Notes under the pieces: generated by a model
What the model saw: the letters and a program-made list of their open reading frames with translations, nothing else
Database searches by the model: none
Told to the model about the DNA's origin: nothing
Program-made: the position numbers and the translations under genes
Part shown: one piece after another, positions 1-63,466 of the stretch
Position numbering within the stretch: position 1 is the first letter of the stretch
Layout of the letters: each line of letters begins with the position of its first letter
Assembly: GCA_050084515.1 (NCBI GenBank)
Contig: CM114271.1
Span: 39,060,001-39,124,000 of the forward strand
Source of the DNA: Blasia pusilla
Taxonomy: Eukaryota
DNA: 64,000 nucleotides
Reading direction: 5' to 3'

Positions 1-1076
1 GATGGGAGAAGCGAGTGCGACGACTCCTATTGTTGATGTTCAGGAGGGGCATGTGTCGAGCACGTTGTTGGGGGAGGCCATAGTTGTGTACCGCACTCCT
101 TTATTTTCTGCTTCCGATGTTATGACGTTGGGGGGTACGCCCGCCGAGGCTTTTCGGCTGGCCGCTTCACTATGTGAGCGGAGTTGGAGTTCTGCATCAC
201 GTTGAGGTGATTTGAGGAGGAGGTGATGGACCTGCCCTTGGGGGGCGGATGCCGGGCCGTCCATGTCGATTCATGGGAGGGTGCGGCTGCTAGGATGGCG
301 GAGATGCCCGCTAGACCCGCGATAGAGCGTGCCATGGCTTCTCCTGGTGTTGTGTTGTTGGATAACCAAAGAGAGGTCTTCGTTGGTGAGTCCCGGAGGT
401 AGAGCTTTTAGTCGGTAGCGTCTTGTTGATTAGGGGGCAGCGTCATTGAGGATTGGGCTTGCGAGCCGATGTGGAGCGTTGTCCATTCGGATCGGACATC
501 CTTGGGTGGAGCAAGTACCACACAATATATCACCCGCCAGAGGAGTGGGTGGTGATTCACCCGGGATATCCTGAGATGAGTCCGTGAGTGCGCGCCAAAG
601 CGATAGTGGATCGATCAAGAGTCCCTCACGGCGTCTTGGTTGGTGGAGCGATATTGTACCCGGCGGGGTTTTCCTGGATTCTTGGGAGGAGTTCCCCTGA
701 GACCAGGATGGCGTCGGTGATGGGCGCCTTAGCTCATTACCCGTTCGATTCACAGTGCGATGATCGAGCAGCGGCCATGAGAGATAGCGACCTTAGCGAG
801 CATTTAGTAGTGCCATCACTTGGCCTAGTGATTTGATTGAGGACATGTCCATCTGAGGATACTCCGTTCTTGACATTTCTATGGAGAGAGTGTTATGGTA
901 TTGCATCATTCCGTGGAGAGAGGTCTGTGGGACTCGAGAGCTTCAACGATTGGCGGATGAGCACGAGGCGTGGAGCGGCGTTTGCACCAGGCGTGACCGA
1001 GGAACCGAGGTAGCGAGGGAAGTGCTGATGACACCCTTGGATACCACACCCATTGTGTGGTGTACCGGAGAGGGTA

Positions 1077-1975
1077 TTCGAGTGTTAGATCTCTTTGGAG
1101 GGATTAGCACCAGGTTAGCTTCTTTGTTTTGAGTGCGAGTACAACAATACTGTATGTGGAGAGTGATGATGTTGCGGCGTGTCTCACTACGACATGTGGC
1201 GCAATTATGCCTCGTTTTCCCGACTTATTATCTGCGCGTCAGCGATCTGAGTACGAGTTCCCCTCTTGAGGATATTTTGTTGTTGGGGGCGCAGGACTTA
1301 GAGCGGGTAGGGACCATTGATTTGGTCATTGCGGTTGGCCATGTCGGGGCCAATCGAGTGCTCGATGAGGACGGGTTGGTGACACTCGGTCAGTTGTTTT
1401 GGGAGATGTTGAGGGTCTTCGGGATTTGAGAGCACGGTCTCGTTCTCGGCCTACATTCTAGAGAATGTGCCGATCTTAGGAGACTCAGTCACGGGTGGTG
1501 AGTGCTCATCAGTGCGTGCTGGATCGGCCAAGTGTTCTTGGATGTGGCGAGTGTAGGTTCTAGAGCCCATCGCTCGCGTCTATGGTGGACCAACTTGGTG
1601 CCCCATGCGGTGTTATGGAGGGCGTATCGAGTGGAGCGCCCCTCCCATTTGTTAGTGGATTCCATTTTGGATCCAGGTTGTCGATCACGAGCGGTGAGGC
1701 ACGATGATCGACCACCGTTGACGTGGAGGTAGGTAGGTGCGGGCGGCCTTGCCCAGTTGTGAGTTTTCCGCTTCTGTGCATACAAGGAGGCCGGTCCTGG
1801 CTTGGTTTGGGATGACCAGGTTCAGCGGTTGGTGGAGCCAACGCCCGACGAGAGAGAGCGAGCAATGGGATTTCCCACAGGAGTGACGGCAGTACCATCA
1901 GTGTGAGAGGCATCACGACGCCATGTCTTGGGTCAGCGATGGACTGAAGCGCTTGACATGGATCCTCACTTGGGA
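1077..1975 (+). pseudogene. DNMT3-like C5 cytosine methyltransferase domain in pol of copy 1 (frameshifted)
   Basis: Motif I IRVLDLFGGIST; IDLVIA followed by a frameshifted WPC; ENV codons at ~1462; DVASVGSRAHRSRLWWTN; ERAMGFP. Confidence 0.88.
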
Positions 1976-2379
1976 GTGGTGAGCGGCGTCATATGAGATC
2001 GCTGATCGAGATCACGGGTTGCATTGGTGAGCCCCATGCCCTACCGAGAGACGGTGGAGGCAAATGGGTGGGGGCGAGACCGAGGAGATCTACGCACCAC
2101 GGGAGATCGGAGAGACACCCTTGGACTTCTTGGGATGTTTTGCAGTGCACGCAAGGAGATGATAGCCACAACATTGAGCGTGGTTTGCAACGACGTGGAG
2201 GAGATCGAGTTTGCATTTGGTCAGAGGAGAGCGAGAGTGTTGTTGTTCGAGATGGGGTTGCACCATAGCAACCACCGATACCAGCGCGGAGAGTCCTACC
2301 GTAGTCACGATGGAGACTTGGGAGATATGGGCCCTAAGTTGTGGAGGAGGAGAGCGGCGCCGAATACATCGGTTCCTTA

Positions 2380-5330
2380 GTAATTATAGGAGCGCTGCGT
2401 TTAGCATGGAGGATTTGGGCATTTGAAGGGACCAGGGATCCGCATTGAGTTGTCGAGTGATATGCCGATCTTCCGCGACCCTACAAGTGATATGGAGAGG
2501 GCTCGATTGAGTAGGAGCGCACTTGGTGAGCGAGACTAGTGGAGATGTCGCATGGGGAGTATGCATTTGCCCCGTCATGCCCGCCAAGAAGGATGTGCAT
2601 GGCAACCGGCTGGGCGGATAGGCGGATGTGTGGGGATTACCAACCTATCAATCGGCAGACAAAGTCCGATAGGTATGCCATGCCCACCCGTGAGAGATCT
2701 TTCGATTGGTCACGCAAAGGTCTTGATTCATTGGATTGCGAGCCGGATACCATCCGCCTATCGATTGGAGGACAAGCGAAAAGCGGCATTTTGGGGCATC
2801 AATCCTCACGGGAAGGATTGTTTGTACCCGTGGCGGTTCTTACCATTTGGGTTAAAGAACGCCCTGGCTGAGTTTCGAGAGGGTCATGGATAGGATCTTG
2901 GGTGGTCCGGATTTTGCTAGGTGTTATATTGATGACATCGTAGTCTTTAGCGCCACGGTTGAGGAGCATGAGCAACATCTAGAGGAGGTGTTTCGACAAT
3001 TGCAATTACATGGGCTGAAGCTACATCCGGCAAGTGCAAGTTCTTCTACGACCAGATTGAGTACTTGGGTCATACGATATACCCATGGGGCCTTGGTGTT
3101 TAGTAGACGAAGGTAGAGGCTATCTCACGCATTCCACGCCCTCAGATGTGAGCCGTGTTCGCGCATTCATCGGATTGGCGAACTTCTATCGGCGATCGTC
3201 AAGGGATTGATTCGATTGCGAAGCGGCAGTGACCTTGCTGACCAAGGTGGATCACGAGTGGCACAGGGGATGAGCAGGGAGCGAGCATTTCGATTGCTCA
3301 GGACGAGTTGGCGTCGCACCCATCTTGAGGAGACCGTCGGGCGTCCTTTCGATTGCACGATTGGAGGATGTTGGGGCTTGGAGCGGTGCTCACCCAAAGC
3401 ATGATCATGAGGGTAGAGAGTTCGTGGTGGCTTACGCTAGCCGCTCAAACAACGGCAGGTAGAGGCGGCTCGTATGAGGGTGAGTGCTTGGCTGTGGTGT
3501 GGGCTGTCGCGCATTTCAGGTGTTACTTATTCGGCAACCCCTTTACCATCATCACTGATCATCAACCACTGAAGTGGTTGATGGAGTCCGACAAGCTTAC
3601 AGGGAAGCTTGCAAGATGGGCTCTGTTGTTGCAAGAGTATGATTTTCAGGTGGTACATAGACCTGGGACGCTCAACCATGATGCAAATGGGTTGAGTCGT
3701 AACCCATGCCCGAGTCAGCGAGATGTGACTGGTGCTCGATGGCATGGAGAGAGTGATGAGGAGTCGGTGCCAGGATGGCACGCGTCAGCCTATTTAGGCA
3801 TGTTGGATATGGAGAGCTAGAGTGTGGAGACTTCGATGGCGAGGTCTAGTGGAGAGTCCTTGGATCCCGAGGCCAGTGAGGACACGACAAGTAGTCAAGA
3901 TATTCATGATGATGGAGTAGTCTTAGAGTACCTTCGTACTGGCAGCCTTGCGAGCACCATGGATGCTAGAGAGCGGGATCGGATCCTACAGCGGGCCAGA
4001 CGGTTCCGTTGGGAGGGGACACATGTTTTGAGGGTTTGGAAAGATGGCAGAGTACGCGTAGTGCCGCATCCTTCGCAGAGAGCACGACTAGTGGAACATG
4101 CCCACGAGGAGTTGGGTCACTTTGGGGTGAAGCGGACGTATAGCTTGCTCGATTCGTATTGGTGGCGAGGCATGCAGACCGGCGTTCAGCAGATTTGTTG
4201 CCAGGTGCATGGTGTGTGATCGGGTCCGAGCATCGTTCAATGCTCCGACTCCGATTGCATCCATTACCGATCATGGGCTTAGGGTATAGATGGATTTTGG
4301 ATTTTGCAGACCTTTGCCCTTGACGGAGCGTCCACGTCGTTATGTGTTGGTGATGGTGAGCACTTCTCGAAGTGGATCGAAGTTGGTTGCATTGCACGAC
4401 AAAGCGAGTGAGGGAGTAGCTTATGCCTTCCTTGACAGAGTCGAGTCATTATGACGCCGGCCGGTGGTGTTGACGGACCAGGGTACCGAAGCGTGGTGAG
4501 TTCCAGGCCTTGTGTGATGGCGTTGATCGACCACCGCGACGACGACCGCGAGATCATCCCGAGGCGGATGGACTAGCGGAGAGTTGTCTGAGCGGTGAAG
4601 AGGATTTACGCAAGTATGGCTTGCAGAGAGGTCACCTAGAGATTGGGACCTCCGGTTGCCATGGTTGGCAATGGAATACAGATTCAGTGGCGGGCATCCT
4701 GGCGTCTTTTTCACCGTACTTGCTACTTTATGGCGAGAGCCATATTTACCTGCGGCCATTCGTCGAGATCTTTGGTGAGTCTTTGGACCTTGATGACCCG
4801 GATGTATGGGTGCGAGCATGTTCTCGGAGGGCTGAGTTATTTCGAGAGTGATGCCCATGGCGTTCGAGAACTTGGCGATTGCACAAAGATCGGGATACGT
4901 TGAGGTATGCGACTATTCGGGTGGTGGTTATCGACCAACTATCCCGGAGGTTTGATTAGGGAGATTATGTCTACTTGCAGCGAAGAAGACACCCACGCGT
5001 TGGATATGATGCAGGCGCACTATCCCCGAGAGTGCGTGACATTTTGCCATCGGGTGTTCTCTTGCTGGAGGGACGCGATGGTATGGTATGGAAGGACCAT
5101 GTGCATAATTGTGCGCCATGTCACCTTCCTAACATTGATGGTACAGTAGATCCGAGCTTAGCAATAGTTCCTATAGGCTTGCGTTGTATGTTGTGTGGTT
5201 CGCGTGGTGTGGGCGATGCTAGTTGTGATGGGTGTTCGAGAGGATGGCATATGGCATGTTTGACGCCACCTCTCACTAGGGTTCCTCGTGGGGCGATGGA
5301 TGTGTCCCAGGATGTACATAGAGTAGGTAG
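2380..5330 (+). pseudogene. pol: RT-RNase H-integrase-PHD part of pol, copy 1, many frameshifts
   Basis: ORFs 2539-2893, 2886-3116 (YIDD), 3353-3820 (RNase H), 3824-4219 (integrase Zn finger), 4510-4851, 4975-5445 (PHD). Confidence 0.92.
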
Positions 5331-5501
5331 TTCTACATTCCGACTTGTGTCTGTGACATGGATGACAAGAAGGCGACTAACGATGGGGCCACATGAGCAC
5401 CCGGCCTTCTTGCTCTTAGCATCCGAGAGATGTATGTCATGGTAGGTAGGGATAGATGGCTATCTGGAGTTAGAGGGACCTAACCACCAACTAGGGGGGC
5501 G

Positions 5502-6272
5502 ATTGGAGATATTTTGGTACTTCTTGTCTCGTTGTTTGGATGCCATGAGTTAGCATGGGATCATGCGTGTTTGTGTGTGTGTTCGGTGACAGCGATGTAT
5601 GTTGTGTAGCGATGTGTATGCGCACGACAACTATCACGTCTTTTAGGATAGATCGGTGAGATCTAATAGAGCGCCTTCGTGAGTAATGGAGGACACGCTC
5701 AATAGGTTGCGAATGACCTGCTGAGGCCCCGGGAAACCTGAGAGAGCCGGTTTCCCCTTCGCTTCGGCTCATTTGGAGCCATATTAAGGAACTTACTATT
5801 TTAGGTAAGTATCATTTTGAGTATATGATCGACTTTCTATTTTTGGTAAGTGGCCCTTGACCTCCTATATCAGGTCAAGAGCCAAGGAGGTGACTTGGGA
5901 GAATAGGTTACCATGGAGAGAGCTTGGGAGAGGGGAGGGGTATACCTCAAGGAGAGAGAGCTTGAGAGCTCATTCTCTCTTTATTGAACCTCTTGGCATG
6001 AGGCGGCGGAGCTATGGTACCTTGCCTTGTGAGTGTAACCCAAGCCTCTCATTAGGAGAGTGGGTTTGGTTTGACATGAGAGAGAGTGCACACCTTTGAG
6101 AGCTATGGTGTGAGATGGTGGAGAGAAAGATTGGATCCTACTTTATTGGAGATATTTTGGTACTTCTTGTCTCGTTGTTTGGATGCCATGAGTTAGCATA
6201 GGATCATGCGTGTTTGTGTGTGTGTTCGGTGACAACGATGTATGTTGTGTAGCGATGTGTATGCGCACGACA
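5502..6272 (+). repeat. Terminal repeats of copy 1: B1 5502-5629, A2 5632-6144, B2 6145-6272; purine tract 5493-5501
   Basis: The 128 bp B unit (attggagatattttggtac...gcgcacgaca) occurs twice around a ~513 bp A unit. A matches 14111-14626 (reverse complement), the solo starting at 54351, and 58110-58625. Confidence 0.93.
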
Positions 6273-12021: not shown

Positions 12022-14942
12022 GGGGGAAGAGAAAGAGAGTCACGATCGGGAAAGCGATCTGCACAATATACGGCGTACGCCGTGCGACTCCATTCGAGCC
12101 CGCGACCCTATCTCACGCGACTTTCCTCATAGATGTCGGCCGTCGTTCTGTCAACACGTTGTAGCAGCAGCCGTCGATGTCACCTGGATCTGCCAACACA
12201 TGTTTCTCATGGCTGACTGCTACGATAGTCTCTTACTATAATTAGGAGACTAACTCGGGATGTTTTGAACTGGATTCCCCGAATCCCGAACCGTCTGCCC
12301 ATCGCGACACCACGATTCCCTGAGTTTTTGTTGTACCACGCGTCCTTTCTCAATTCGGAATCCAAACACTGTAAAAAATGCGTCAACACTCATCCTCGCT
12401 TACCATTCGAGATCGTAGGATGCAGTTCCTCACGGGGCCAGTAAGGCTTCCCACGTGTCCCATAAAATAAATAAAATAAGATTATCATGATGGCTCACTA
12501 AACATTTAATACGCCACGTGGATACTACCTCAACGGTGAATTAGAACCCATGCCCACATGACAAATGTCCGTCGATGAGATTACGGACGGGCCTTGTGTA
12601 AGTGGTCACTGAGATATCGATCAGGGAGAGGTCGGGACTAGCAAGTGAGGCTACGGCAGGACCACAACCACGGAAATATTGAACCTCTTACTTATTTAAA
12701 CTTAGTTAGTATTGAAAAAGTTTATCTATACTATAGGGGGGGTTACTTCTTATTTGGGAAGTAACCCCTCCTCACACTATAATGTGTGGAGGAGTGGAGT
12801 GAAACAAGTCTCGTTTCCTTCATAGGTTCTGTTTTGAATCTTTGGCTCTTGCAGTCGATTGCATTAATGGTAGAGCAAGTTCCTGAAGATTTATGAGTGA
12901 CGCCTAAAATGAGGGAATGTGCGGAAAGGGTCAAAAGGTTTGTTGTTCTCTTGGGCTTTTCCATAGGGACGTGCTTGGCTTCGGATTCTCAAGGCTCGGA
13001 AAATCCCACAATTTGTGACCCTGACGATGGATTCTTACTGGGATTTATAATTGCAATCATTTCACAAGATTTGGTTGACGTTTCATTTTTGAAACGTCCT
13101 CTTACCGACAAAATTCTGGACTTTGGAGTAACAAAATCAAATTTACGACTAGACTTATGTGATCGGTCGTAACATGAGAGGCAATAGCGTACATCCAATG
13201 AAAGAATACCGCATGTGGGAATGCTATTGTCCGGATTCTCTTCTGATGTGGTTCTTGTCACAAGAAAAAACAAACCATGTGCGGGGCCCTAGAGATCGAC
13301 CGATCCATCACAGGTTTTGTTGATGTGCCTTCCGCGTACGTTTGGGCGAGAGGGTGCCTGTGCTATTGTGGCGCGGTTCTTCTTTCCGCATTTTTGACTT
13401 ACAGCAGAACCTAATTTCAGCCGTCGTAGTAATTTCTTTTTGCATATTCTTCAACGTTTCCAGGTCTCTCATTCAGCTTAGCTAAGCTTTCTTTCCTCGA
13501 CGTCAATCGGGGGAAGAAGCCAAAATTCCGTGAGTGGATGGGTGGGTGACCGTGGGTCATTACACTGGTCACATCGTCATTTTGGAGCACTCGAACTCTT
13601 GGTAGGTTGTGCCTTCCTGATGAGCGTTCTAGAACAGCGATCCGTGCATCGTATTGCAATCCAAGTAGAAAATTTTCCCGGTTGGAGTTAGTCTAGAGAT
13701 GTGAAGGTCATTTATCTTCAATCAGGATCATTTTGTGAGAAATATTTCTCTGCACTTCCCCTAATTACGCAGATTTGCTCTACTCCATGTTGAGCAAAGG
13801 TCAATGATCTTGCTGTGCATCTCCTCTGCTGAGGAATGAAATCTGAGCATATGCAAGCTTCCCCGTTGTCAAAATCCAAAGGGTGGAGATTAGGGCGATC
13901 TTCCATTTTGATGACTTGCCTTAATTTTGGCTCTCGAGGATTCTGTAAACTCTTAGCTGTGGAATTTGAGTCCTATGAGGAGTGTCATGCGCATACACAT
14001 CGCTATACAACATACATCGCTATCACTGAACACACACACAAACACGCACGATCCCATGCTAACTCATGGCATCCAAACAACGAGACAAGAAGTACCAAAA
14101 TATCTCAAATTAAAGTAAGATCCAATCTCTCTCTACACAATCTCACACCATAGCTCTCAAAGGTGTGCACTCTCTCTCATGTCAAACCAAACCCACTCTC
14201 CTAATGAGAGGCTTGGGTTACACTCACAAGGCAAGGGACCATAGCTCCGCCGCCTCATGCCAAGAGGTTCAATAAAGAGAGAATGAGCTCTCAAGCTCTC
14301 TCTCCTTGGGATATATACCCCTCCCCTCTCCCAAGCTCTCTCCATGGTAACCTATTCTCCCAAGTCACCTCTTTGGCTCTTGATCTGATGTAGGAGGTCA
14401 AGGGCCACTTACCAAAAATAGAAAGTTGATCTTATACTCAAAATGGCACTTACTTAAAATAGTAAGTTCTTCAAAATGGCTCCAAATGAGCCAAAACGAA
14501 GGGAAAACCCGCTCTCTCAGGTTTCGCGGGGCCTCAGCAGGTCATCCTCGACCTCCTAGGCCTGTCCTCCACTACTCTTGAAGACGCTCTACTAGATCTC
14601 ACCGATCTATCCTAAAGGACGTGACAACTATTGTGCGCATATACATCGCTACACAACATACATCGCTATCACTGAACACATATACAAACACGCACGATCC
14701 CATGCTAACTCATGGCATCCAAATAACGAGACAAGAAGTACCAAAATATATCCAATCGCCCCCTAGCTGGTGGTTAGGTCCCTCTAACTCCAAATAGCCA
14801 TCTATCCCTACCTACCATGACATACATCTCTCGGACGCTAAGAGCAAGAAGGTCGGGTGCTCATGTGGCCACATCGTTAGTCGCCTTCCTGTCATCCATG
14901 TCAGAGAAAAAATTCGGGATCGAAACCTACCTAGTATCTCCT

Positions 14943-15764
14943 CTATGTACATCTGGGACACATCCATCGTCCCCGAGGAACCCTAGTGAGAGGTGGCGTC
15001 AGACATGCCATATGCCAACCTCTCGAACAACCATCACAGACTAGCATCGTGACCGCACCACAGGCATAACCACACAACAAACAACGCAAGCCTGCAAGAA
15101 CTACTGCTAAGCTCGGATCCAGTGTACTATCAATGTTAGGAAGGTGACATGGTGCACAATTACGCACATGGTCCTTCCATACCATACCATCGCGTCCCTC
15201 CAGCAAGAGAACATCGGATGGCAAAACGTCACGCACTCTCAGGATAGTGCGCCCTGCAGTCACATCCAACATCGTCGGTGCCGTCTGCTGCAAATAGACA
15301 TAATCTCCCTGATGAAACCTCTGGATAGTTGGTCGATAACCACCACCCCGAATAGTCGCATACCTCAACGTATCCCGATGTTGCGCAATCGCCAAGTTCT
15401 CGAACGCCATGGGCATCACTCTCTGAAATAACTCAGCCCTCTGAGAACATGATCGCACCCATATATCTGGGTCATCAAGGTCCAACACCTCATCAGCATC
15501 TCGACGAATGGCCGCAGGTAAATCTGGCTCTCGGCCATAAAGTAGCAAGTACGGTGAAAAAGACGGTAAGGATGCCTGCCTGCTGAATCTGTTTCCCATC
15601 GCCAACCATGGCAACAAGAGGTCCCAATCTCCTAGGTGACCTCTCTGCAAGCCATACTTGCGTAAACCCCTCTTCACCGTTTGCACAACTCTCTCCGCTA
15701 ATCCATCCGCCTCGGGATGATCTCGCGAAGTCGTGCGGTGGTCGATCAACGCCTGATCACTCAA
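14943..15764 (-). pseudogene. pol: Integrase C-terminal part with C4HC3 PHD finger
   Basis: HPEADGLAERVVQTVK and SPYLLLYGRE, then CLLCG...CDGCSRGWHMACLTPPLTRVPRGRWMCPRC. Confidence 0.93.
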
Positions 15765-15794
15765 GGCTTGGAACTCAACATGAAACTCGGTACC

Positions 15795-18013
15795 CTAATC
15801 TGTCAACACCTTAGCCGGTGCGCCATAATGACTTAGCACTCTGTCAAGGAAGGCATAAGCTACTCCCTCACTCGCTTTGTCAGGAAATGCAACCAACTCG
15901 ATCCACTTCAAGAATTGCTCGACCATCACCAACACATAACGACTGTGACGCTCCGTCAAAGGCAAAGGTCCTGCAAAATCCAAACTCCATCTATACCCTA
16001 AGCCCATGATCGGTAATGGATGCAACTGTGGAGTCGGAGCATTGAACGATGCTCGGACCCGATCACACACCATGCACCTGGCAACAAACTGTTGAACGTC
16101 AATCTGCATGCCTTGCCACCAATACTGAATCTGGAGCAAGCTATACGTCCGCTTCACCCCAAAGTGACCGAACTCCTCGTGGGCATACTGCACTAGTCGT
16201 GCTCTCTGCGAAGGATGCGGCACTACGCGTACTCTGCCAGCCTCCCAAACCCTCAAAACATGTGTCCCCTCCCAACGGAACCGTCTGGCCCACTGTAGGA
16301 TCCAATCCCGTTCTCTAGCATCCACGGTGCTCGCAACGCTGCCCGTACGAAGGTACTCCAAGACTACTCCATCATCATGAATATCTCTACCACTTGTTGT
16401 CTCCTCACTGGCCTCGGGATCCAAGGACTCTCCACTAGACCTCGCCATCAAAGTCTCCACACTCTGGCTCGCCATAACCAACATGCCTAAATAGGCTGAC
16501 GCGTGCCATCCTGGCACCGACTCCTCATCACTCTCTCCATGCCATCGAGCTCCAGTCGCATCTCGCTGACTCGAGCATGGGTTACTACTCAACCCATCTG
16601 CATCTTGGTTGAGCGTCCCAGGTCTATATACCACCTGAAAATCATACTCCTGCAACAACAGAGCCCATCTTGCAAGCTTCCCTGTAAGCTTGTCGGACTC
16701 CATCAACCACTTCAGTGGTTGATGATTAGTGATGATGGTAAAGGGATTTCCGAATAAGTAACACCTGAAATGCGCGATAGCCCACATCGCAGCCAAGCAC
16801 TCACCCTCATACGAGCTGTACTTCGCCTCTGCAGCGTTGTTCGAGCGTCTAGCGTAAGCCACCATGAACTCTCTATCCTCTCATCATGCTGGGTGAGCAC
16901 CGCTCCAAGCCCCAACATGCTCCAATCTGTGTGCAACTGGAAAGGACGCCCCCTGATCGGTCTCCTCAAGATGGGCGCAGACGTCAACCTGTCCTTGAGC
17001 AACTGAAATGCTCGCTCCTGCTCATCCCCCCAGTGCCACTCGTGATCCACCTTGGTCAGCAAGGTCAGTGGCTTTACAATCGAAGTGAATCCCTTGACGT
17101 ATCGCCGATAGAAGTTCGCCAATCCCATGAATGCGCGAACACGGCTCACATCTGTAGGGCGTGGAATGCGTGAGATAGCCTCTACCTTTGTTTGATGAAC
17201 ACCAAGGCCCCTTGGGTATATCGTATAACCCAAGTACTCAATCTGGTCGTAGAAGAACTTGCACTTGCCTGGATGTAGCTTCAGCCCATGTAATTGCAAT
17301 CGTCGAAACACCTCCTCTAGATGTTGCTCATGCTCCTCAACCGTGGCGCTAAAGACTACGATGTCATCAATATAACACCTAGCAAAATCCAGACTAGCCA
17401 AGATCCTATCCATGACCCTCTGAAACTCATCCGGGGCGTTCTTTAACCCAAATGGTAAGAACCGCCACTGGTACAGACAATCCTTCCTGTGAGGATCGAT
17501 GCCCCAAAATGCCGACTTCTGCCTGTCCTCCAATCTGATAGGCAGCTGATGGTATCCGGCTCATAAATCAATGAATCAAGACCTTTGCGTGATCAATCGC
17601 ATCAAAGATCTCTCAGGGGTGGGCATGGCATACCTGTTGGACTTCGTCTGCCGATTGATAGGTCGGTAATCCCCACACATCCGCCTATCCGTCCAGTTGC
17701 CATGCACATCCTTCTTGGCGGGCATGATAGTGGCAGATGCATATTCCCCATGCGACATCTCCACTAGTCCTGCTCTGACCAAGTCTTGGCTACTACTCTG
17801 AATCAAAGCCCTCTCCATATCACTGTACCTGTAGGGTCGTCGAAAGATCGGCGTATCACTCGACAATTCAATGCGGATCCCTGGTCCCTTCAGCGTACCC
17901 AAATCCTCCATGCTAAACGCAAAGCAGCTCCTATAATTACTAAGGAACTGATGTATTCGGCGCCGCTCTCCTCCTGTCAACTTAGGGCCCATATCTGGCT
18001 CCCAAGTCTCCAT
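15795..18013 (-). pseudogene. pol: RT, RNase H and integrase N-terminal/core region of copy 2
   Basis: RMCGDYRPIN, LPFGLKNAP, CYIDDIVV, FQLHTDWS, YEGECLA, HEEFGHFG...CMVC, WSLDFAGP. Confidence 0.95.
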
Positions 18014-18329
18014 CGTGACTACGGTAGGACTCTCCGGCGTGGGTATCGGTGGTTGCTATGGTGCAACCCCGTCTCGAACAACAACACTCGGCCGCTCTCC
18101 TGCAACCAACTGCAAACTCTAATCTCCTCCACGTGCAGTGCCCGAAACCACGCTCAATATTGTGGCTATCATCTCCTTGCGTACCTGCAAAACATCCCAA
18201 GAAGTCCACGGGTGTCTCTCCCGATCTCCTCTGGTCTCGCCGCCAGCCACTGCCTCCACCGTCTTGGTAGGCATAGGGCTCACCAACGCAACCATTGTGA
18301 TCTGTCGCGATCTCATACGACGTTGCTTA

Positions 18330-18969
18330 GCCACTCCCAAGCTGAGGATCCATGTCAAGCAGTTCAGGTCCATCGCCTGACCCAAGACATGGCGTCGTGA
18401 TGCCTCTAACACTGACGGTACTGCCGTCACTCCTGTGGGAAATCCCATCGCTCGCTCTCTCTCATCGGCGTTGGGCTCCACCAACCGCTGAACCTGGTCA
18501 TCCCAAACCAAGCCAGGACCGGCCTCCTTGTATGCATAGGAAGCAGGAAAACTCACAAACGTGGGCAAGGCTGCCCTCGGCCTACCTATCATGTTGACCA
18601 CAATCAACGGTGGTCGATCATCGTGCCTCACTGCCTGTGATCGGCGACCTGGATCCATAATGGAATCCACTAACAAATGGGAGGGGTGCTCCACTCTCGC
18701 ATACGCCCTCCGTAACACCGCATGGGGCACCAAGTTGGTCCACCATAGACGCGGGCGATGGGCTCTAGAACCTACACTCGCCGCATCTAAGAACATTGCT
18801 TGGCCGATCCAGGTACGCACCTGATGAGCACTCGTCACCACCCGTGACCTAGAGTCTCCTAAGATCGGCATATTCTCCAAAATGTAGGCTGGAGAACGAG
18901 ACTGGTGCTCCTGCAACTGCCGTAAGACCCTCAACATCTCCCAAAACAACCTGAACCGAGTGTCAGCCA
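18330..18969 (-). pseudogene. C-terminal half of the DNMT3-like methyltransferase (motifs VI, VIII, IX, X)
   Basis: LFWEMLRVL, YILENM, DAASVGSRAHRPRLWWTNL, ERERAMGFPTGVT, RRHVLGQAMD, all in ORF 18119-19021. Confidence 0.92.
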
Positions 18970-40815: not shown

Positions 40816-43800
40816 AAAATTGAAATAATGAAGCTTTTCAATAGTGAATATTTTGATATTTAATATTTAAAAGGAAAGTTTAATTTTGAATGGGAAGGGA
40901 TAAAATTTCCAAAAAGGGCTAGGAGGCTTCATCTTTTTAATGTTAAAATTCAATGGGATAATCGAGGAGAGATGAGGAATAAAATTTTGAGGCACATGAC
41001 TCATGAGATAAGGCGGAAATAATATACAATATAGGAGAAATAGATCAACCTTCCTCCATCCCTCTACATTTCTTTGAAACGTAAAGGTTAGGTGGAAGGG
41101 GATAAAAGGAAAGGAATCAAAGGGATGCACACATATAAACTCTCTTCAAAGGGCTAGAGAGGATCCTATGTACCTAGTGCATAGCATGAGCATAAGAATA
41201 TTGGTCTTTATAACTCTTGGAGTTAAAAATATGTATATAATCTCTTCCTCTTATTGGGGCCATTAAAAGAAACTCTTTAAGGAATTTTTCATTTCAATAG
41301 AAAAAGTTAACAGAAGAGACACATATGGGTTTTATTATTAGAATAAATAGATTATTTATGTTAAAAAAACTCCTCTTTATGACAAAATGTTATGATTGCT
41401 ATGAGTTATCTAAGAAGGTACCCTTGTGTGCTATGATGATTGGATGCTTTGATTAGCCTGTTATGGTTAGCTTCTTTAGATCAATGGAAAGAGATGAATT
41501 TGGACCTCCAAGCTCCCACTTGTTTGTCTTAAGGCACGTCTCAGCTCTGAATGGCCATAAAAGGGCACTTAGGACATCTTCACAATTGTAGGTGAATATG
41601 GTTCCCATCCTATAATATATAAAAAGGGGCTATATTGAAGACGTTTTTCTAGTAGAGACATCATTGAGGGTGTCCATCCTCGTTGACTGTAAGCAAGAGA
41701 ATGGAATCTTCAGAGAGAAAAGTAAACATCTCTATGTAGGATTGAGGCTCGATTAACAAAATGAAAATCCTCAAATCTAACAAAATTGTCGACGTCCAGT
41801 AAATGTAGTAGCCTGTAATGATCGTGTAAATGAATGAAATTCATCACCAAATAACTAAAAATTTAAGAATCTCATTGTGCATTCCATAATCATTGAGGGA
41901 TTTACAAGGAACTAATAATAATAATTATTATTATTATTATTTGAGGGGGGGGGGATAAGCTATAGTATCTCTTTCATGGAATGGAGTCATCTTGCTTCTT
42001 GGTCGCTCTTGCTCTACTTCTGATTTCTTGTTGACCCTTTGTTCCCATGTTTATATAAATTTATGACAATTCTAAGATGATGTTGTTGGAACCTAGCTTC
42101 AAATTAAGAGGTTAAGATGTTAACCTCAATAATTTAACTCTCATCAAACCACCTAGGCTGAGCAATTAAAAGAAAATGAGAGGATGCATGTTCTGCAATA
42201 CTCGAAACAAGTTTGATTTTGAAACTAGACTTTTATTTCACCACCTCAAAATTTTATTTCTTTGCTATCAAATCAGCATTGCTCACATATTCTCATGCAC
42301 AAAATCATCATTTCTAACCCGCCTTTGTGCTTTCCTCTACGCTTGTGTTACAGTATGCTTGCATGAAAGTTTTCATGCGCATACACATCGCTACACAACC
42401 CACATCGTTGGTCACATCTACATACCACCCAACACCGATCTTCCCAAGATACGAGTCGATCCATCCATAAATGAAATAAACTCACGCATATACATTGAGA
42501 CCCCACGACAAAATCAAAGTAAAAATCGCTTACCCGGCCTAAAACTCCACTCTTGAATCTACATCAGCATATCGAGCCACATCCTCCCTCCGCTATGAGG
42601 AATCCAGACGCTAGCACCCTAATTCCTACACACCCTCACACACACATGCAAAATAGATGCTCTTAAGGCTCAATATGAGAAATATGGCTTGAGAAATCCA
42701 TCTCTCTTACTCTTATACCCTTGGGAAGAGCCAAAATCCTATTCCCCCAAAAATAGCCCTCCCAACGGTAACCTACGTGCATAGGTTATGGGGTGACCGT
42801 TGACTCAATCAATAGGTCACTTGACGGACTAAAACCAAAATAGGGAAATCACCATAAATGATGTTCCCAATGCAATAGACTTGTTGCCAACCTCATCTGA
42901 CATCTCAAGACGAAGTTACACTCAAGACAGTCCGTTGGCTCTCTTTGTTGTTGCCACGATAGATCTCTACGTATCGGCTACTAAGACGTAACAACTATCG
43001 TGCGCATACATATCGCTACATAATCCACATTTCTGGTCAAATCTACACACCACACAACACCGATCTTCCCAACACATGGGTCAATCCATCCATAAACGAA
43101 ACAAATTCACGTATATACATTGAGACCCCACAACCGTCCCCCTCATTGGTAGTTGGATCCCCCTAACTCCAGATAGCCCACACATATGTACCTGATATGA
43201 TTTACTATCCTATACATCTAGCACCATTAGTGTCGTCATCCCTGCAATACTGCCCCATTGCAGCAACCCGTTGTGTTGATCCCTCCGAAGAGATCAAACA
43301 CTCTCTTATCCTGCTCCAAACGCTGCCATACAACAAGTGTGGTATCCAAAGATATAAAGTCTCCACACCAAGAGCACCACTGTCATATGACTTTGTCTGC
43401 TCCAAGACATAAGCACGGCTCTATGCCTGCCTCACGAGCTCATGTGCACTCCACGCAACTCAACCCTCATCCCCAACAATGATAAAGAAGCTTTGCACCA
43501 TGGGAAGAGACACCCATCTTGACATGTCTCTCCGTCGGACTATCCGCTACAGGAATTTCCCCCACATGTATGCTCCTCTCCCCAAACCCTCTTGATCAAC
43601 TAACACCACTTGTGAATGCTGCCAACGTGATCATTGTATCCTCATGTGGTTGACCACGACTACCCCCTGCAAACAATATCCGTGGATGGCTCACCTGTCT
43701 ATCACCTGATCGCCACCTTGGTCGAAAAGAAATCGTCTCCTCCCAAAAAACTAGAATGAAACCAAGGAGATACAACACCGTACTCTCTACCAATACATCA

Positions 43801-43976
43801 TACGATTATGCCGGTGTCGTAACTGCTTGAGTGCGCACCATCGCACTATCCGACTCATGCTCTGGCTGGAGTCTGACCACCAACTCTTGTCGAGTCATGT
43901 ACTACGTGGATGATACGCCCCCAACAGAGGTGTGTATCGGAAAGGAAAAATGCTCGATGTTGCCTTTTTGTAACCC

Positions 43977-45118
43977 TGTAATGTCTAAGTGTTTCTTATT
44001 TACAGTCAATTGTAGAGTTCGATCCCCAAGAGGATCATTGTTGGATGAAAAGAGAGTATAAAGTGATGATTATGTTGTAAAAATGTAATTGATTATGTAA
44101 TTCAAATGTAGTATTCTAGGAACATCTTCCGATCCTTTTTAGTACCTATGTTTCCTTCTTCAATTCTCTCGTGTGGAGTTTAAAGTACGCTCAGGCAATT
44201 TGTTCTCTCGACATCTCGGAACCTCACAGAGACCTCAAGAATAAAGTTGGCTTCTCTTACTTTCGGAACTCAATCCGTCGGGGCAGGTTACTCTCTGTCA
44301 AACAGATTTCATACAACTTTATGTTGATTTTTCCATTGATAAGAAAGGTTCGCCTTATTCACTCTTCACTCGGCAGACCCGAAAAGAATATTCAGACATA
44401 AGCATCGCACATCAAAATGAATGAATGAATGCTTTACTACTCTATCAAGAATTGGAAGACTTCAAAGTATATACAAGCTCGAGAGGGTACAACTCTCTTG
44501 CTCGGACCATTCCTACAGCATAAGGACTTCATGAGCGAATGATGATAATAGCTTTTGTCTAGTTTCTTAAATATTCTCGAGAATAGGAGCGTTTCTATGA
44601 TCCGAAGCGTTCTTGATGAAGTTGGTGTCTCTTCAATATCTGTAACTACCTAGATCTATGGTTCTCTTAGCTTTTCCTACGATCCCTATGAATCATGGTA
44701 CAAAATCGTTTCTAACTACCAATTTGATACAAAGGGTCGCGCCCTTTCCTAGTCTAATTGTTTAAACTATGTGTCGGTTCGAATCACAATCATGCTGAGC
44801 TTCGCTGCGCTAAATTTCCGGAGGATGAAGTTCTTCATTCTTCTTCGTCTTCGTCTTCGTGCTTCGTTCAAGAGCGAAGTACCTCGTATACAGAGCTTCG
44901 TTGAGCTTCGCGTTGATCCTTTATACTTCGTTACAGCTTTTGATTCTCCTCTAAGGCAAATCCTTGAACTTCCATCTTTCTGCCTTGTCTTAGGAGCTTG
45001 GTGATTCACTTATTCTTCTTCATAATAATAAATAATCATAATCAAAATCATAATATACAAGAGTCTTCGTTGAATAAAAAGATATATTCTTCAAGATTAC
45101 AAAATTGTGGGTATCACA
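43977..45118. mobile_element. Solo LTR of an unrelated conventional LTR retrotransposon, 5 bp TSD AACCC
   Basis: TGT...ACA ends; AACCC at 43972-43976 and 45119-45123. Removing it restores the protease frame GKAACLPLGLQKGNIEHF. Confidence 0.88.
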
Positions 45119-47290
45119 AACCCCAACGGCAAACACGCCGCCTTCCCTAACATTAAGGGCTGCGCTCCCGAATCAAGTAGGATGCGCTGCGGGTGGTACA
45201 CCGCACCTATGGGACTAACCAAGCAAAACACTCCAACTCGATTATCTAACAACACCACACCTGATGTGATCATGGCTTGCTCTATCGCTGGCCTAGCACG
45301 CATATCTACTAACTTTGCCACCATAGCATGCCATGACTCCCGAGTACTTGCTCCGAGGATAGGTCCACCATCTCCTCAACTACCTCTAAACAAGAGGCAG
45401 TCACCTCTTCGTGCTCATACAACATAGCAGCCATCCGGAACTCATCGGCTGGTCCAATTCCCAACGTTGCCAAATCCATGGCAGAAAACAACGGAGCCTA
45501 ACTCAACCTAGTGGCCACCTCCAAGAACGTGGTCGAAATTCCAACCAAGCCACCATTGGAGCTATCTCTCCAACTCCTCGTGACATCGATGCACCTACCT
45601 CACGTGTGGGTACTACTAGTCGTTGAGGCACCATCAACGGTGTATGAAATGCCTCCAAAACCGTGAACGACTTGGGAATCCTAGCTTGCCGCCCATCGGT
45701 CCCCTTCTGTGGGTCAATCTCAACCCCACCTCTTGATGGCTCAGTTACTCTCGTAGTACCCCGAGTCACCACTGCATCAGCCTCAACTTGATCCGCACTA
45801 CACATAAATCCCATACCAGCCCAATCCTCACCTGTATCGTGGTAAGATGTGGAGGCTGGAGCTAGACTAGCTACTCTCAACTTTGTGTCTGCCCTTAGCT
45901 GCAGGATCTTGCATCATCAGCATGGGATCAATCCTCTGCTCCAACTTATCGATGCGAGTAAGGAGCGTTGCATAGGGTTCACTTCCTCCGTCTCCTATGA
46001 CTGGTGATGGATTCTACCACCACGATCATCCACTACTCGATCTCCACCAACTCTCATGCCCCCAAATCCTCTGCCTACCTCTTGCTGTACCTCCCGACGA
46101 AGATCAAAACACCTATCCCTAGTGTGACCATATTGATGACAATGATCACACTGCAACTGTGGTGGGTTCATCCTAGGTGGCTCTTGAGCAATGGGAAGTA
46201 TCCTTGGTCCTCTACCATGCTGTGGGCAGTCCCTCTGCCTATGTGGCCCACCACACATCCAACAAGCCCATCTTAGCTGGTCCCTGCCAGGTAACATATG
46301 TCGATACGGGTCGTTGCCTCATCGGCTCACGATACTCACCATGCTCTCTGGGCCGATTGGCCCGCTCTCATGGTATTGATGCATGCTAGGACACATGTGG
46401 GGCTACTTCTACTCATAAACCCGTCAAATCCCGTGAAAATCCCGTGGTCACCACTTTCTCTTCACTCATGTTGAGCTCTATGCGCTTAGAAAACTCAAAG
46501 ACCACCTTCAATGTGGGTTTTTCCATGTGAAGCAATATCGCATCCCGAACTCCTCCGTAGCTCCTGGTCCAACACCCCATACCAATACTATATTCACTAT
46601 GCCTCAATCACCCCATATGTGGCAATGATCAGTTGTCGCATCCACGTGAACGCGTCCCTCAAACTCTCACCCAATCTCCGCTGAAATTCCTGTAGACTCT
46701 TCAGCTTGTCGGTCCGCACGCCCTCGCACCTCCTCCCCAACTGTTGAAAGAACTCCAATGTAGGAGTGAAACTGGGTGGTCCTCTACCACGAGAAGTCTC
46801 TGCCATGTCACCACTCTCACTGCCATCCTCTCCATCTAGTCCTCGCGCTAATGGTGTAGGCCTCTCTGCCCTCACTATCCCATCATACGCCTCACGGCGA
46901 CTAGTGGACACGTTGATCTCTACTGAGTGTAAAGATCAAAACTCCATGCAGTCATCCATCGGAGGGCCCTCTAAATACTGGAACAGACCCTTCCACACCA
47001 TGAAGGGTTGAACCGCGTAGGGGCTCGGATCTCTTGGAATTCACACCATTTGTCGAACTCCTAGATGAAATCAGCAAGGTCAATCATCCCTACCACACCC
47101 GAGAAACAACGTATCCCCCAATGGCCCATATTTTCCATCTCTCTCCACGTATCATTATCCCCATCTGCAATCTCGTCACCAGGCCATTTTTCCAAATTCT
47201 GGAAGAACGCCGTGATGACAATTCTCTCTCACCCGCTCAAGCACTCAGACTCACCAAGAGTCTCCCACACTCCTCACTAGCTCACCTACG
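45119..47290 (-). pseudogene. gag: gag and protease start of copy 3
   Basis: CWMCGGPHRQRDC, CDHCHQYGHTRDRC, GVRTDKLKSLQEFQRRLGESL and RILLDSGAQPLM; homologous to 60306-62500. Confidence 0.87.
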
Positions 47291-57118: not shown

Positions 57119-57333
<215 letters not shown>

Positions 57334-57348
57334 TGACCTATGATCGTA

Positions 57349-63157: not shown

Positions 63158-63466
63158 ATTCAAGTGTTAGATCTCTTTGGAGGGATTAGCATCGGGTTAG
63201 CCGTTGTTTTGCACGTAGGAGTGCGAGTACAACAGTACCTGTATGTGGAGAGTGATGATGTTGCAAGGCGCGTCTCACTACGACATGTGGCGCAGTTACG
63301 CCTACGTTTTCCCGACTTTTTGTCTGCGTCCGCAGTATAGGGGTACCACAGTTCCCTACCGAGGGATATTTCGTTGTTGGGGGCGCAGGACTTAGAGCGG
63401 GTAGGGACCATTGATTTGGTCATTTCCGGTTGGCCATGTCAGGGCCGATTGAGTGATGGACGAGGA
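63158..63466 (+). pseudogene. N-terminal half of the DNMT3-like methyltransferase (motifs I-IV)
   Basis: IQVLDLFGGISIGL, YLYVESD, one TAG at 63338-63340, then DISLLGAQDLERVGTIDLVISGWPCQG with the catalytic Pro-Cys at 63434-63439. Confidence 0.92.

What the first reader, a model, noticed from the sequence alone, without database searches (positions are those of the whole stretch)
1077..1975. Gypsy retrotransposon family encoding its own DNMT3-like cytosine methyltransferase between protease and RT
Seen: all four copies carry C5-methyltransferase motifs at the same position in pol: 1077-1975 (+), 18330-18969 (-), a remnant at ~43280 (-) and 63158-63466 (+). The motifs are VLDLFGGI, DLVISGWPCQG, ILEN(V/M), DAASVGSRAHRPRLWWTN, ERAMGFP and RRHVLGQAMD. 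In copy 4 the domain begins in the protease reading frame (ORF 62396-63340). Known: these match the order and flavour of DNMT3 catalytic motifs (VLSLFDG, GGSPC, ENV, AHRARYFWGN, ERVFGFP). From memory, DNMT-carrying retrotransposons have been reported in dinoflagellates and a charophyte alga, so capture itself has precedent. Inference: this is a multi-subfamily, stably inherited domain with the catalytic Cys retained. It could methylate the cDNA or new insertions de novo, for self-silencing or camouflage.
Basis: partly seen in the sequence, partly recalled or inferred. Interest (0 to 1): 0.93.

Follow-up and report, generated by a model that had tools for sequence, protein, structure and literature searches.

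The report
Bryophyte Gypsy retrotransposon carrying DNMT3-like methyltransferase
The window holds decayed copies of a plant jumping gene that carries its own DNMT3-like DNA-methylating enzyme, a kind of element already described in a charophyte alga but here shown to be abundant, conserved and transcribed in mosses and liverworts.

Summary
The "four copies" are really two elements plus a remnant. Copy 2 and copy 4 break at the same element position, and their terminal repeats are 98% alike. They look like one element split by a ~44.5 kb inversion or by misassembly. No window copy is intact, and the window's own pieces give no PF00145 hit.

Intact relatives at 60-68% identity do pass PF00145. 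They come from Marchantia, Calypogeia, Riccia, Sphagnum and moss-type metagenome contigs. A family profile ranks DNMT3A/B/C far above DRM and bacterial enzymes, and a fold search agrees.

The domain is in frame with pol. The order is gag-PR-DNMT-RT-RNaseH-integrase-PHD. dN/dS falls to about 0.11-0.13 in diverged pairs, the same as for RT. The element has split direct repeats (A-coding-B-A-B), as published for KnitGypsy-Dnmt3 of Klebsormidium. RNA-seq reads from close relatives cover the element on one strand.

I file it as a new member of a known kind. Three things may be unreported. It occurs widely in land plants. Chlorophyte relatives carry the same domain between RNase H and integrase. Many copies have EC instead of PC at the catalytic site. 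Catalytic activity is untested.

The scan had earlier noted a different, dead methyltransferase fold in a diatom Gypsy element. It had not noted this family.

The parts
1..1076 (+). Copy A: end of gag and protease region. The 5' end is cut by the window edge.
   Evidence: tblastn with Marchantia polyprotein P0124, residues 502-1214, covers 14-2038. blastn: 83% identity to copy 4 at 62015-63466.
1077..2040 (+). Copy A: DNMT3-like domain with motifs I, IV, VI, VIII, IX and X in canonical order. It is broken by at least 3 frame changes and 3 in-frame stops.
   Evidence: Motif positions. P0002 residues 66-444 match 995-2080. Stop count.
2316..5292 (+). Copy A: RT, RNase H, integrase and a degenerate PHD finger.
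   Evidence: tblastn with P0131 covers 2316-4033 and with P0146 covers 3899-5292.
5502..6272 (+). Copy A: 3' split direct repeat. B1 is 5502-5629, A2 is 5634-6144 and B2 is 6145-6272.
   Evidence: B1 and B2 are 98.4% identical over 128 bp. The A repeat ends in TG...CA.
58112..58625 (+). Copy B: 5' repeat A1. It has no B part.
   Evidence: 98.07% identical to 14627-14111. Matches only the first 512 bp of the 640-bp A+B unit.
60204..62228 (+). Copy B: gag with CCHC zinc knuckles.
   Evidence: ORFs. P0124 residues 9-546 match 60459-62168.
62387..63466 (+). Copy B: protease (DSG at 62444-62452) running in frame into the first third of the DNMT domain (motif I at 63164-63184, GWPCQG at 63428-63445). 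One in-frame stop at 63338-63340. The copy ends abruptly at 63466.
   Evidence: ORF 62387-63340. Frames. P0131 residues 56-477 match 62156-63445.
18330..18965 (-). Copy B: last two thirds of the DNMT domain (motifs VI, VIII, IX and X) in an open frame.
   Evidence: ORF 18119-19033. 66% identity to P0001, E 7.8e-112.
14946..18055 (-). Copy B: RT (about 17220-18055), RNase H (about 16644-17032), integrase zinc domain (16050-16214), integrase core and PHD finger (14949-15083). There is one frame change near 16880.
   Evidence: Pfam hits: RVT_1 1.2e-24, RT_RNaseH 2.3e-24, Integrase_H2C2 3.5e-17, rve 5.6e-05, PHD 1.2e-09.
13983..14756 (-). Copy B: 3' split direct repeat. B1 is 14633-14756, A2 is 14111-14627 and B2 is 13983-14106.
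43272..47117 (-). Copy C: gag, protease and motif I remnant of a divergent subfamily. It is truncated just after DLFGG.
   Evidence: 31-38% protein identity to copy B.
54353..54990 (+). Solo A-B repeat flanked by the 4-bp duplication TCAT.

Best explanation
These are decayed copies of a bryophyte Ty3/Gypsy-type retrotransposon family of the 'Gypsy-DNMT3' kind.

Shown:
- The element is about 10 kb.
- It is bounded by split direct repeats (A1 - coding - B1-A2-B2) and makes a 4-bp target duplication.
- It encodes gag(CCHC)-protease-DNMT-RT-RNase H-integrase-PHD in one reading frame.
- The DNMT part is a non-permuted DNMT3-type C5 cytosine methyltransferase domain with all catalytic motifs and a longer, family-specific target-recognition region.

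Inferred mechanism:
- The domain is made as part of Gag-Pol, so it is packaged with RT and integrase.
- It methylates the element's own double-stranded cDNA or the fresh insertion.
- The PHD finger on integrase resembles readers of the unmodified H3 tail. It would steer insertion into silent chromatin.
- The result would be a new copy that arrives already marked like host heterochromatin. This would limit harm to the host and avoid recognition as new, active DNA.
For: Family and enzyme type:
- Intact relatives pass PF00145 at 32-54 bits against a cut-off of 22 (4 of 4 tested).
- A profile of 20 family domains scores DNMT3A at 6.4e-21, DNMT3C at 3.9e-19, DNMT3B at 1.4e-18, tobacco DRM at 4.5e-11, Arabidopsis DRM2 at 3e-08, M.HhaI at 6e-06 and DNMT2 at 1e-03.
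- All chains printed among the first 50 Foldseek ranks are DNMT3A, B or C, the best at 2.4e-13.

Place in pol:
- Every metagenome locus with flanking sequence shows the order GAG-PR-DNMT-RT/RH-INT/PHD.
- L034 has one 1369-aa frame through gag, PR and DNMT. L040 has one 847-aa frame through DNMT and RT.
- In the window, ORF 62387-63340 runs from protease into motif I. The copy 2 DNMT and RT ORFs share a frame (coordinates).

Selection:
- dN/dS is 0.41 at dS 0.1-0.2 (n=331), 0.37 at dS 0.2-0.4 (n=380) and 0.11 at dS 0.8-1.5 (n=33).
- The two stop-free copies L033 and L034 give 0.13.
- On the same pairs, DNMT gives 0.36 and RT gives 0.34 (n=22).
- The catalytic Cys is kept in 58 of 58 loci.

Repeats:
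- The A1...B1-A2-B2 arrangement is seen in the window and in 4 of 10 long loci examined. It matches the arrangement printed for KnitGypsy-Dnmt3 (PMC5890265, Fig. 4c legend).

Transcription:
- 507-612 RNA-seq reads per run in 3 runs lie only on the element. They show at least 10:1 strand bias. Reads run on past the 18965 break into sequence that is not at this locus.

PHD:
- The nearest solved chains are PHF12, CHD4, KDM5/Lid, KAT6A, PHF21A, AIRE and ATXR5.
Against: - No activity has been shown for this family. The published yeast assay of the Klebsormidium domain gave no methylation and the authors called it inconclusive.
- The window's own pieces give no PF00145 hit at E<=0.1.
- dN/dS between the window copies is 0.50-0.61, which says little. 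RT and integrase give 0.46-0.77.
- Only 5 of 58 related DNMT regions are free of stops.
- 34 of 58 related loci carry E instead of the near-universal P before the catalytic Cys. That could mean altered or lost catalysis in those subfamilies.
- The AlphaFold model is only moderate, with mean pLDDT 63.8.
- No tree against named DNMT3, DRM, CMT or MET1 references could be built, and no Klebsormidium sequence was available.
- That this PHD type reads unmodified H3K4 is recalled knowledge, not a test.
- The RNA reads are 95-99% alike to the window copy and only 6-12 per run reach 99%. They come from sister copies. Calling them 'sense' assumes the usual stranded library chemistry.
Confidence: 0.8

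Rival explanations
1. The domain is kept for a job other than DNA methylation. It might act as a DNA- or RNA-binding or tethering module in the replication complex, or as an RNA methyltransferase. Catalysis on DNA would be weak or absent.
For: - EC replaces PC in 34 of 58 related loci. GWECQ is found in 74 of 121 chlorophyte-type proteins.
- The published Klebsormidium domain gave no methylation in yeast.
- The same paper raises RNA methylation for the LINE-borne DNMT.
- An earlier scan note reports a catalytically dead methyltransferase fold in a diatom Gypsy element (not checked here).
Against: - The window's subfamily has canonical PC (48 of 59 related proteins read GWPCQ).
- The Cys is kept in 58 of 58 loci. 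The Glu of motif VI is kept in 54 of 58 and its Asn in 58 of 58. The motif I glycines are kept.
- Such a full set is not needed for binding alone.
- SymbioDIRS-Dnmt3 domains do methylate CG de novo.
Confidence: 0.12
2. The methyltransferase stretch is a host DNMT3 fragment or a nested insertion that happens to lie in these local copies. It would not be a stable part of the element.
For: None beyond the fact that every window copy is broken in or next to the domain.
Against: - The domain holds the same position and frame in all related loci with flanks.
- The same is true in 24 of 26 long bryophyte proteins that carry PR or gag before it.
- It is under purifying selection.
- It is found in Marchantia, Calypogeia, Riccia and Sphagnum.
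Confidence: 0.01
3. Copy 2 and copy 4 are two separate sister insertions, each truncated at the same point. The window would then hold three DNMT-bearing elements plus a remnant.
For: - Synonymous divergence from copy 1 is about twice as high for the 5' half (dS 0.20-0.26) as for the 3' half (0.09-0.12).
- The 4-bp flanks differ at one base.
- The junctions could not be checked in reads, because the flanks have no depth in the DNA run.
Against: - The two pieces end within about 8 bp of the same element position and are complementary halves.
- The A repeats are 98.07% alike, against 91-94% to other copies.
- One simple inversion of 18966-63466 would restore a complete element.
Confidence: 0.15

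Closest known systems
KnitGypsy-Dnmt3 of Klebsormidium nitens (de Mendoza et al. 2018, PMC5890265; section 9 read in full)
   Same: Both have Gypsy-type pol domains with a non-permuted DNMT3-type domain inside the Pol ORF. Both have no introns and conserved key residues. Both are under purifying selection (published Ka/Ks <0.2; 0.11-0.13 here for diverged pairs). Both have repeats arranged A-coding-B-A-B like DIRS elements.
   Different: The host here is a bryophyte (land plant), not a charophyte alga. No Klebsormidium sequence was available, so kinship is inferred from architecture only. The position of the domain in the Klebsormidium Pol is shown only in a figure I could not see. A PHD finger on integrase is not mentioned in the text I read.
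Chlorophyte elements with RT-RNaseH-DNMT-integrase-PHD, for example Monoraphidium neglectum MNEG_11595 and several Haematococcus lacustris proteins
   Same: The DNMT domain belongs to the same clade (35-38% identity over the whole domain, including the long target-recognition region). The integrase-PHD backbone is the same (42-49% identity).
   Different: The domain lies after RNase H in 101 of 121 proteins and never before RT. One branch with 99% local support separates the two architectures on the DNMT tree. GWECQ is the commonest catalytic motif (74 of 121).
SymbioDIRS-Dnmt3 of Symbiodinium (PMC5890265)
   Same: A DNMT3-type domain sits inside a retrotransposon Pol. The repeats are split direct repeats.
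   Different: It is a DIRS element with a tyrosine recombinase in dinoflagellates. Its de novo CG methylation has been shown in yeast. No such test exists for the Gypsy forms.
Cellular DNMT3A/3B/3C and plant DRM2
   Same: They share the catalytic fold and motif order with DNMT3. They are the best sequence and fold matches.
   Different: The element's domain has no PWWP or ADD domains. The stretch between motifs VIII and IX is longer. It is embedded in a polyprotein. It is not permuted as DRM is.
Chromoviruses (Gypsy elements with a chromodomain on integrase)
   Same: A chromatin-reader module is fused to the C-terminus of integrase.

Membership tests
C5 cytosine DNA methyltransferase (Pfam PF00145) | Score above Pfam's gathering cut-off | tested here: inconclusive
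   The window pieces (copy 2 ORF and copy 4 ORF) give 0 families at E<=0.1. Each holds only half of the core. Intact relatives at 60-68% identity pass: 31.9-54 bits against a cut-off of 22, 4 of 4 tested.
C5 cytosine DNA methyltransferase (Pfam PF00145) | Motifs I (FxGxG), IV (PC), VI (ENV), VIII, IX and X present in this order | tested here: met
   Copy 1 has all six in rising coordinates, though across frames. Copy 4 has I and IV. Copy 2 has VI to X. Motif names are recalled from general knowledge of the family.
DNMT3 subfamily | Closer to DNMT3 than to DRM, DNMT1/CMT, DNMT2 or bacterial enzymes | tested here: met
   Profile against PDB: DNMT3A 6.4e-21, DRM 4.5e-11, HhaI 6e-06, DNMT2 1e-03. 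No DNMT1 or chromomethylase chain is listed at E<=0.01. All chains printed among the first 50 Foldseek ranks are DNMT3.
DNMT3 subfamily | Placement inside the DNMT3 clade on a tree with named references | not testable with these tools
   No named DNMT3, DRM, CMT or MET1 reference sequences could be obtained.
DNMT3 subfamily | N-terminal PWWP and/or ADD reader domains | tested here: not met
   Protease lies directly upstream and RT directly downstream. The only reader-type domain is the PHD on integrase. This is expected for a captured catalytic domain.
Ty3/Gypsy LTR retrotransposon | gag, protease, RT, RNase H then integrase, in that order | tested here: met
   Pfam hits RVT_1, RT_RNaseH, Integrase_H2C2 and rve in copy 2. 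Order confirmed. CCHC knuckles and DSG are read directly from the ORFs.
Ty3/Gypsy LTR retrotransposon | Two identical full LTRs | tested here: not met
   The 5' end has only A (about 514 bp). The 3' end has B1-A2-B2. This is a split direct repeat, not a canonical LTR pair.
Gypsy-DNMT3 (KnitGypsy-Dnmt3 kind) | DNMT3-type domain inside the Pol ORF of an element with Gypsy domains | tested here: met
Gypsy-DNMT3 (KnitGypsy-Dnmt3 kind) | A-coding-B-A-B repeat arrangement | tested here: met
   Seen in window copies A and B and in loci L030, L040, L055 and L071 (4 of 10 examined). The published arrangement was read.
Gypsy-DNMT3 (KnitGypsy-Dnmt3 kind) | Sequence kinship of RT and DNMT with the Klebsormidium elements | not testable with these tools
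   No Klebsormidium protein appeared by name, and no such sequence could be fetched.

The most novel reading that the evidence does not exclude
One lineage of retrotransposons as old as green plants carries a chromatin 'writer' (a DNMT3-type domain) and a 'reader' (a PHD of the unmodified-H3 type on integrase). The writer module has moved within pol: it lies after RNase H in chlorophytes and before RT in bryophytes. In most lineages it has swapped the canonical PC for EC at the active site. The lineage is still transcribed in living land plants, although a published review states that methylase-encoding transposons are absent from land plants. If active, these elements would be a source of de novo methylation outside the host's control in model bryophytes such as Marchantia.
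Probability: 0.35. Interest if true: 0.65.

Novelty: new member of a known kind. Interest (0 to 1): 0.42.

Why it matters
Retrotransposons that carry the host's own silencing enzyme challenge the simple view of methylation as a host defence. Until now the Gypsy-DNMT3 kind rested in print on one charophyte alga.

A review passage I read (PMC6338049) says such elements are not present in land plants, such as tracheophytes. This work shows they are abundant, diverse, selectively maintained and transcribed in liverworts and mosses. That includes many annotated gene models of the model species Marchantia polymorpha.

The question of what a transposon-borne DNMT does therefore becomes testable in genetically tractable land plants. 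The finding also warns annotators that many bryophyte 'DNA (cytosine-5)-methyltransferase' gene models are transposon pol fragments.

Tried and rejected
- The whole genome was asked for, but none is held.
- Pfam on the window's own DNMT pieces gave nothing at E<=0.1.
- dN/dS between the window copies was uninformative: 0.46-0.77 in every domain.
- Earlier notes of this scan, searched by place and by sequence, held nothing for this genome.
- The ESM Atlas look-up gave only generic PF00145 clusters: two viral clusters and one Streptophyta cluster of 57 members. It added nothing.
- The look-up of sequencing runs listed no holder on record as RNA. The RNA evidence comes only from laying three raw-read runs of the same species label.
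- The flanks of copy 2 had no depth in DNA run X1, so the inversion junction could not be checked.
- blastn of the sequences next to the two breakpoints found no repeat or relative in the window or the loci.
- CpG observed/expected is 0.78-0.90 in the window copies and 0.34-0.59 in metagenome relatives. I draw no conclusion from this.
- Nine literature searches found no paper naming bryophyte copies or the Marchantia gene models.
- Passages read in 10.1101/363937, PMC11982613 and PMC9033089 held nothing relevant.
- A tree against named DNMT classes could not be built for lack of reference sequences.

Full report
**What is in the sequence**

- Copy 1 (+, 1077-2040) has motifs I, IV, VI, VIII, IX and X in canonical order. 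They are spread over three frames, and three in-frame stops were counted.
- Copy 2 (-) has motifs VI to X in one open frame (ORF 18119-19033). It begins abruptly at 18965.
- Copy 4 (+) runs in one frame from the protease (DSG at 62444-62452) into motif I and GWPCQG. It has a single in-frame stop and ends abruptly at 63466.
- Copy 3 (-) is a gag-protease fragment of a divergent subfamily. It is 31-38% identical in protein to copy 4. It stops just after DLFGG at 43281-43295, and nothing further of the domain is detectable.

**How many copies**

Self-comparison aligns copy 1 positions 1-1371 with 62015-63466 (83%). It aligns positions 1380-6273 with 18965-13982 (89%). Copies 4 and 2 are therefore complementary halves that break within about 8 bp of the same element position.

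- Their terminal A repeats (58109-58625 and 14627-14111) are 98.07% identical. Identity to the other repeats in the window is 91-94%.
- The 4-bp flanks agree at 3 of 4 bases. The solo repeat at 54353-54990 has a perfect 4-bp duplication, TCAT.
- Inverting 18966-63466 would restore one complete element of about 10.3 kb.

I read them as one element split by an inversion, or by misassembly. Against this, synonymous divergence from copy 1 is about twice as high in the 5' half (0.20-0.26) as in the 3' half (0.09-0.12). The junctions could not be checked in reads. The window therefore holds two elements, one remnant and one solo repeat.

**Architecture**

Pfam finds RVT_1, RT_RNaseH, Integrase_H2C2, rve and a PHD finger in copy 2.

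The ends are not ordinary LTRs. The 5' end carries only repeat A (58112-58625). The 3' end carries B1-A2-B2. In copy 1 these are 5502-5629, 5634-6144 and 6145-6272, and B1 and B2 are 98.4% alike.

The same A1...B1-A2-B2 layout is seen in 4 of 10 long related loci examined: L030, L040, L055 and L071. The other six are cut by contig ends or show only part of it.

This is the arrangement printed for KnitGypsy-Dnmt3 of Klebsormidium nitens. The Fig. [quoted passage not shown]

**Is it a methyltransferase, and of what type**

The window's two open pieces give no Pfam family at E<=0.1. Each holds only half of the core, because the break lies between motifs IV and VI.

- The copy 2 ORF finds 167 proteins of similar length at E<=0.001, the best at 7.8e-112 and 66% identity. 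It also finds 28 longer ones. Named sources are Marchantia polymorpha, M. paleacea, Calypogeia fissa, Riccia sorocarpa and several Sphagnum species.
- Four of four relatives tested pass PF00145, at 31.9-54 bits against a cut-off of 22.
- A single relative ranks DNMT3A/B/C (2e-07) above HhaI (0.012) and DRM (0.013) among solved structures.
- A profile of 20 family domains (alignment A1) sharpens this ranking: DNMT3A 6.4e-21, DNMT3C 3.9e-19, DNMT3B 1.4e-18, tobacco DRM 4.5e-11, Arabidopsis DRM2 3e-08, M.HhaI 6e-06 and DNMT2 1e-03. No DNMT1 or chromomethylase chain is listed at E<=0.01.
- An AlphaFold model of P0004 is moderate, with mean pLDDT 63.8. It is poor in the stretch between motifs VIII and IX and in the tail. 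All chains printed among its first 50 Foldseek ranks in the PDB are DNMT3A, B or C. The best is 2.4e-13 with TM 0.61 on the target.
- Motif order is not permuted, unlike DRM.

I could not build a tree against named DNMT classes, so 'DNMT3-type' rests on these rankings.

**Part of the element, and under selection**

Eighty loci were kept.

- Every locus with flanking sequence shows GAG-PR-DNMT-RT/RH-INT/PHD.
- L034 has a single 1369-aa frame through gag, protease and DNMT. L040 has an 847-aa frame through DNMT and RT.
- Most copies are dead. Only 5 of 58 DNMT regions aligned in one piece are free of stops. Of 200 stops, 152 arise by C>T or G>A.
- Pairwise dN/dS of the DNMT region could be computed for 790 of 1653 pairs. 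It falls with divergence, as expected if neutral decay after insertion is laid over constraint in the active lineages. The values are 0.41 at dS 0.1-0.2 (n=331), 0.37 at dS 0.2-0.4 (n=380) and 0.11 at dS 0.8-1.5 (n=33).
- The stop-free pair L033/L034 gives dN 0.034 and dS 0.263, a ratio of 0.13.
- On the 22 pairs where both domains could be measured at dS 0.1-0.3, DNMT gives 0.36 and RT gives 0.34.
- The catalytic Cys is kept in 58 of 58 loci. The Asn of motif VI is kept in 58 of 58 and its Glu in 54 of 58.
- Between the window copies the ratio is 0.50-0.61 for DNMT and 0.46-0.77 for the other domains. This says only that DNMT behaves like the rest.

**Transcription**

Three raw RNA-seq runs carrying the same coded species label as the best DNA holder were laid on 12000-20000.

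- 507-612 reads per run lie only on 13869-19208. None lie on the flanks.
- Nearly all are 95-99% alike to the window copy, and only 6-12 per run reach 99% or more. They come from sister copies rather than this one.
- The first mate lies on the + strand about ten times more often than on the - strand. With the usual library chemistry that means RNA of the element's sense strand. This is an assumption.
- Reads reaching 18969 run on into sequence that is not at this locus. This is as expected of copies with an unbroken DNMT region.
- Depth over the DNMT part is low (about 1.5-6) compared with the 3' part (up to about 60).

**Wider relatives**

Two long proteins from the first searches, P0146 and P0148, carry the same domain at 35-38% identity over its whole length. 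The match includes the long stretch between motifs VIII and IX. In these proteins the domain lies between RNase H and integrase, again with a C-terminal PHD.

- A search with that domain found 129 such proteins, among them Monoraphidium neglectum MNEG_11595 and several Haematococcus lacustris proteins.
- Of 121 with a domain hit, 101 read RT/RH-DNMT-INT/PHD and none has DNMT before RT. The long bryophyte proteins all have (GAG-)PR-DNMT.
- A FastTree of 124 DNMT domains, unrooted and using a subset of rows, separates the two architectures by one branch with 99% local support. It places the window's copy nearest P0126, a Calypogeia protein and Marchantia proteins.
- The commonest catalytic motif is GWECQ in the chlorophyte type (74 of 121). 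GWECQ or SWECQ is found in 29 of 58 metagenome loci. The window's group has canonical GWPCQ (48 of 59 proteins).

**The PHD finger**

The copy 2 PHD (14949-15083) is closest among solved chains to PHF12 (2e-16), CHD4, KDM5/Lid, KAT6A, PHF21A, ATXR5 and AIRE. From memory, these are mostly readers of the H3 tail with unmodified K4. This is a lead, not a test.

**How it most likely works**

Shown: the domain is translated with protease and RT, and it is conserved like RT.

Inferred: it travels with RT and integrase and methylates the new cDNA or the fresh insertion. The PHD guides integration to silent chromatin. New copies would then arrive pre-marked. This is in essence the hypothesis of de Mendoza et al. 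2018.

Their yeast assay showed de novo CG methylation for SymbioDIRS-Dnmt3. For KnitGypsy-Dnmt3 it showed none, and they called the result inconclusive. The EC variants keep open a non-catalytic or altered role.

**What is known**

- PMC5890265 describes Gypsy-DNMT3 only in K. nitens. It mentions bryophytes only for the host DNMT3.
- The preprint 10.64898/2026.05.21.726589 speaks of 'streptophytes (Gypsy-DNMT3)' (passage).
- Nine full-text searches found no paper naming bryophyte copies or the Marchantia gene models.
- Supplements were closed and may already list them.

**Verdict**

This is a real feature and a known kind. The bryophyte family is best filed as a new member. The host range (land plants), the shifted domain position relative to chlorophyte relatives, the EC variant and the PHD reader are the parts that may be new.

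That the window comes from a bryophyte is an inference. It rests on the nearest relatives and on a plant En/Spm transposase fragment in the window.

I did not check it.

Noticed in passing
L038-L080 and proteins P0146-P0267: The Pro of the catalytic PC dipeptide is replaced by Glu (GWECQ) in 34 of 58 related loci and in 74 of 121 chlorophyte-type proteins. The Cys is kept in 58 of 58 loci. This is an unusual, conserved active-site variant.
   Followed up: partly
P0146, P0148, P0149-P0267 (not in the window): Chlorophyte Gypsy elements (Monoraphidium, Haematococcus) carry the same DNMT clade between RNase H and integrase: 101 of 121 proteins read RT/RH-DNMT-INT/PHD. The module sits at two different places in pol in the two plant lineages.
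   Followed up: partly
window 14949-15083 (-), and degenerate at about 5150-5292 (+): The integrase ends in a PHD finger instead of a chromodomain. Its nearest solved relatives are PHF12, CHD4, KDM5/Lid, KAT6A, PHF21A and AIRE.
   Followed up: partly
window 18965/18966 and 63466/63467: These are the apparent breakpoints of a ~44.5 kb inversion, or a misassembly, that splits one element in its DNMT domain. The flanks match nothing else in the window.
   Followed up: partly
window 32026-33564: A 180-bp satellite with 8.6 copies and 79% matches.
   Followed up: no
window 49317-51022 (-): A second, unrelated Gypsy RT/RNase H/integrase fragment without a DNMT domain. RVT_1 scores 3.9e-19 at 50432-50980.
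   Followed up: no
window 20627-21202 (+), 35518-36018 (-), 28631-29140 (+): Weak Pfam hits: an En/Spm-type plant transposase fragment, a DUF659 fragment and a protein kinase fragment. The first two are below the curated cut-offs. The window is largely transposon debris.
   Followed up: no
window 55053-55412 and 57320-57610 (-), 57120-57330: Two fragments about 75% alike to repeat A lie in reverse orientation about 2 kb apart, next to a (CT)105 run. They may be a short derivative of a related family.
   Followed up: no
window 1-6000 (+) and 14000-18000 (-): There is a strong G-over-C skew on the coding strand of the element: +0.22 to +0.24 on one copy and -0.20 to -0.25 on the other. It is unexplained.
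   Followed up: no
L001-L080: Of 200 in-frame stops in related DNMT regions, 152 arise by C>T or G>A. Many copies still align in one frame. This decay pattern fits cytosine deamination.
   Followed up: partly
window about 16880 (-): Copy 2 changes frame here. RNA reads from sister copies differ from it by one base at this place: 8 of 9, 4 of 4 and 8 of 8 reads in the three runs.
   Followed up: no
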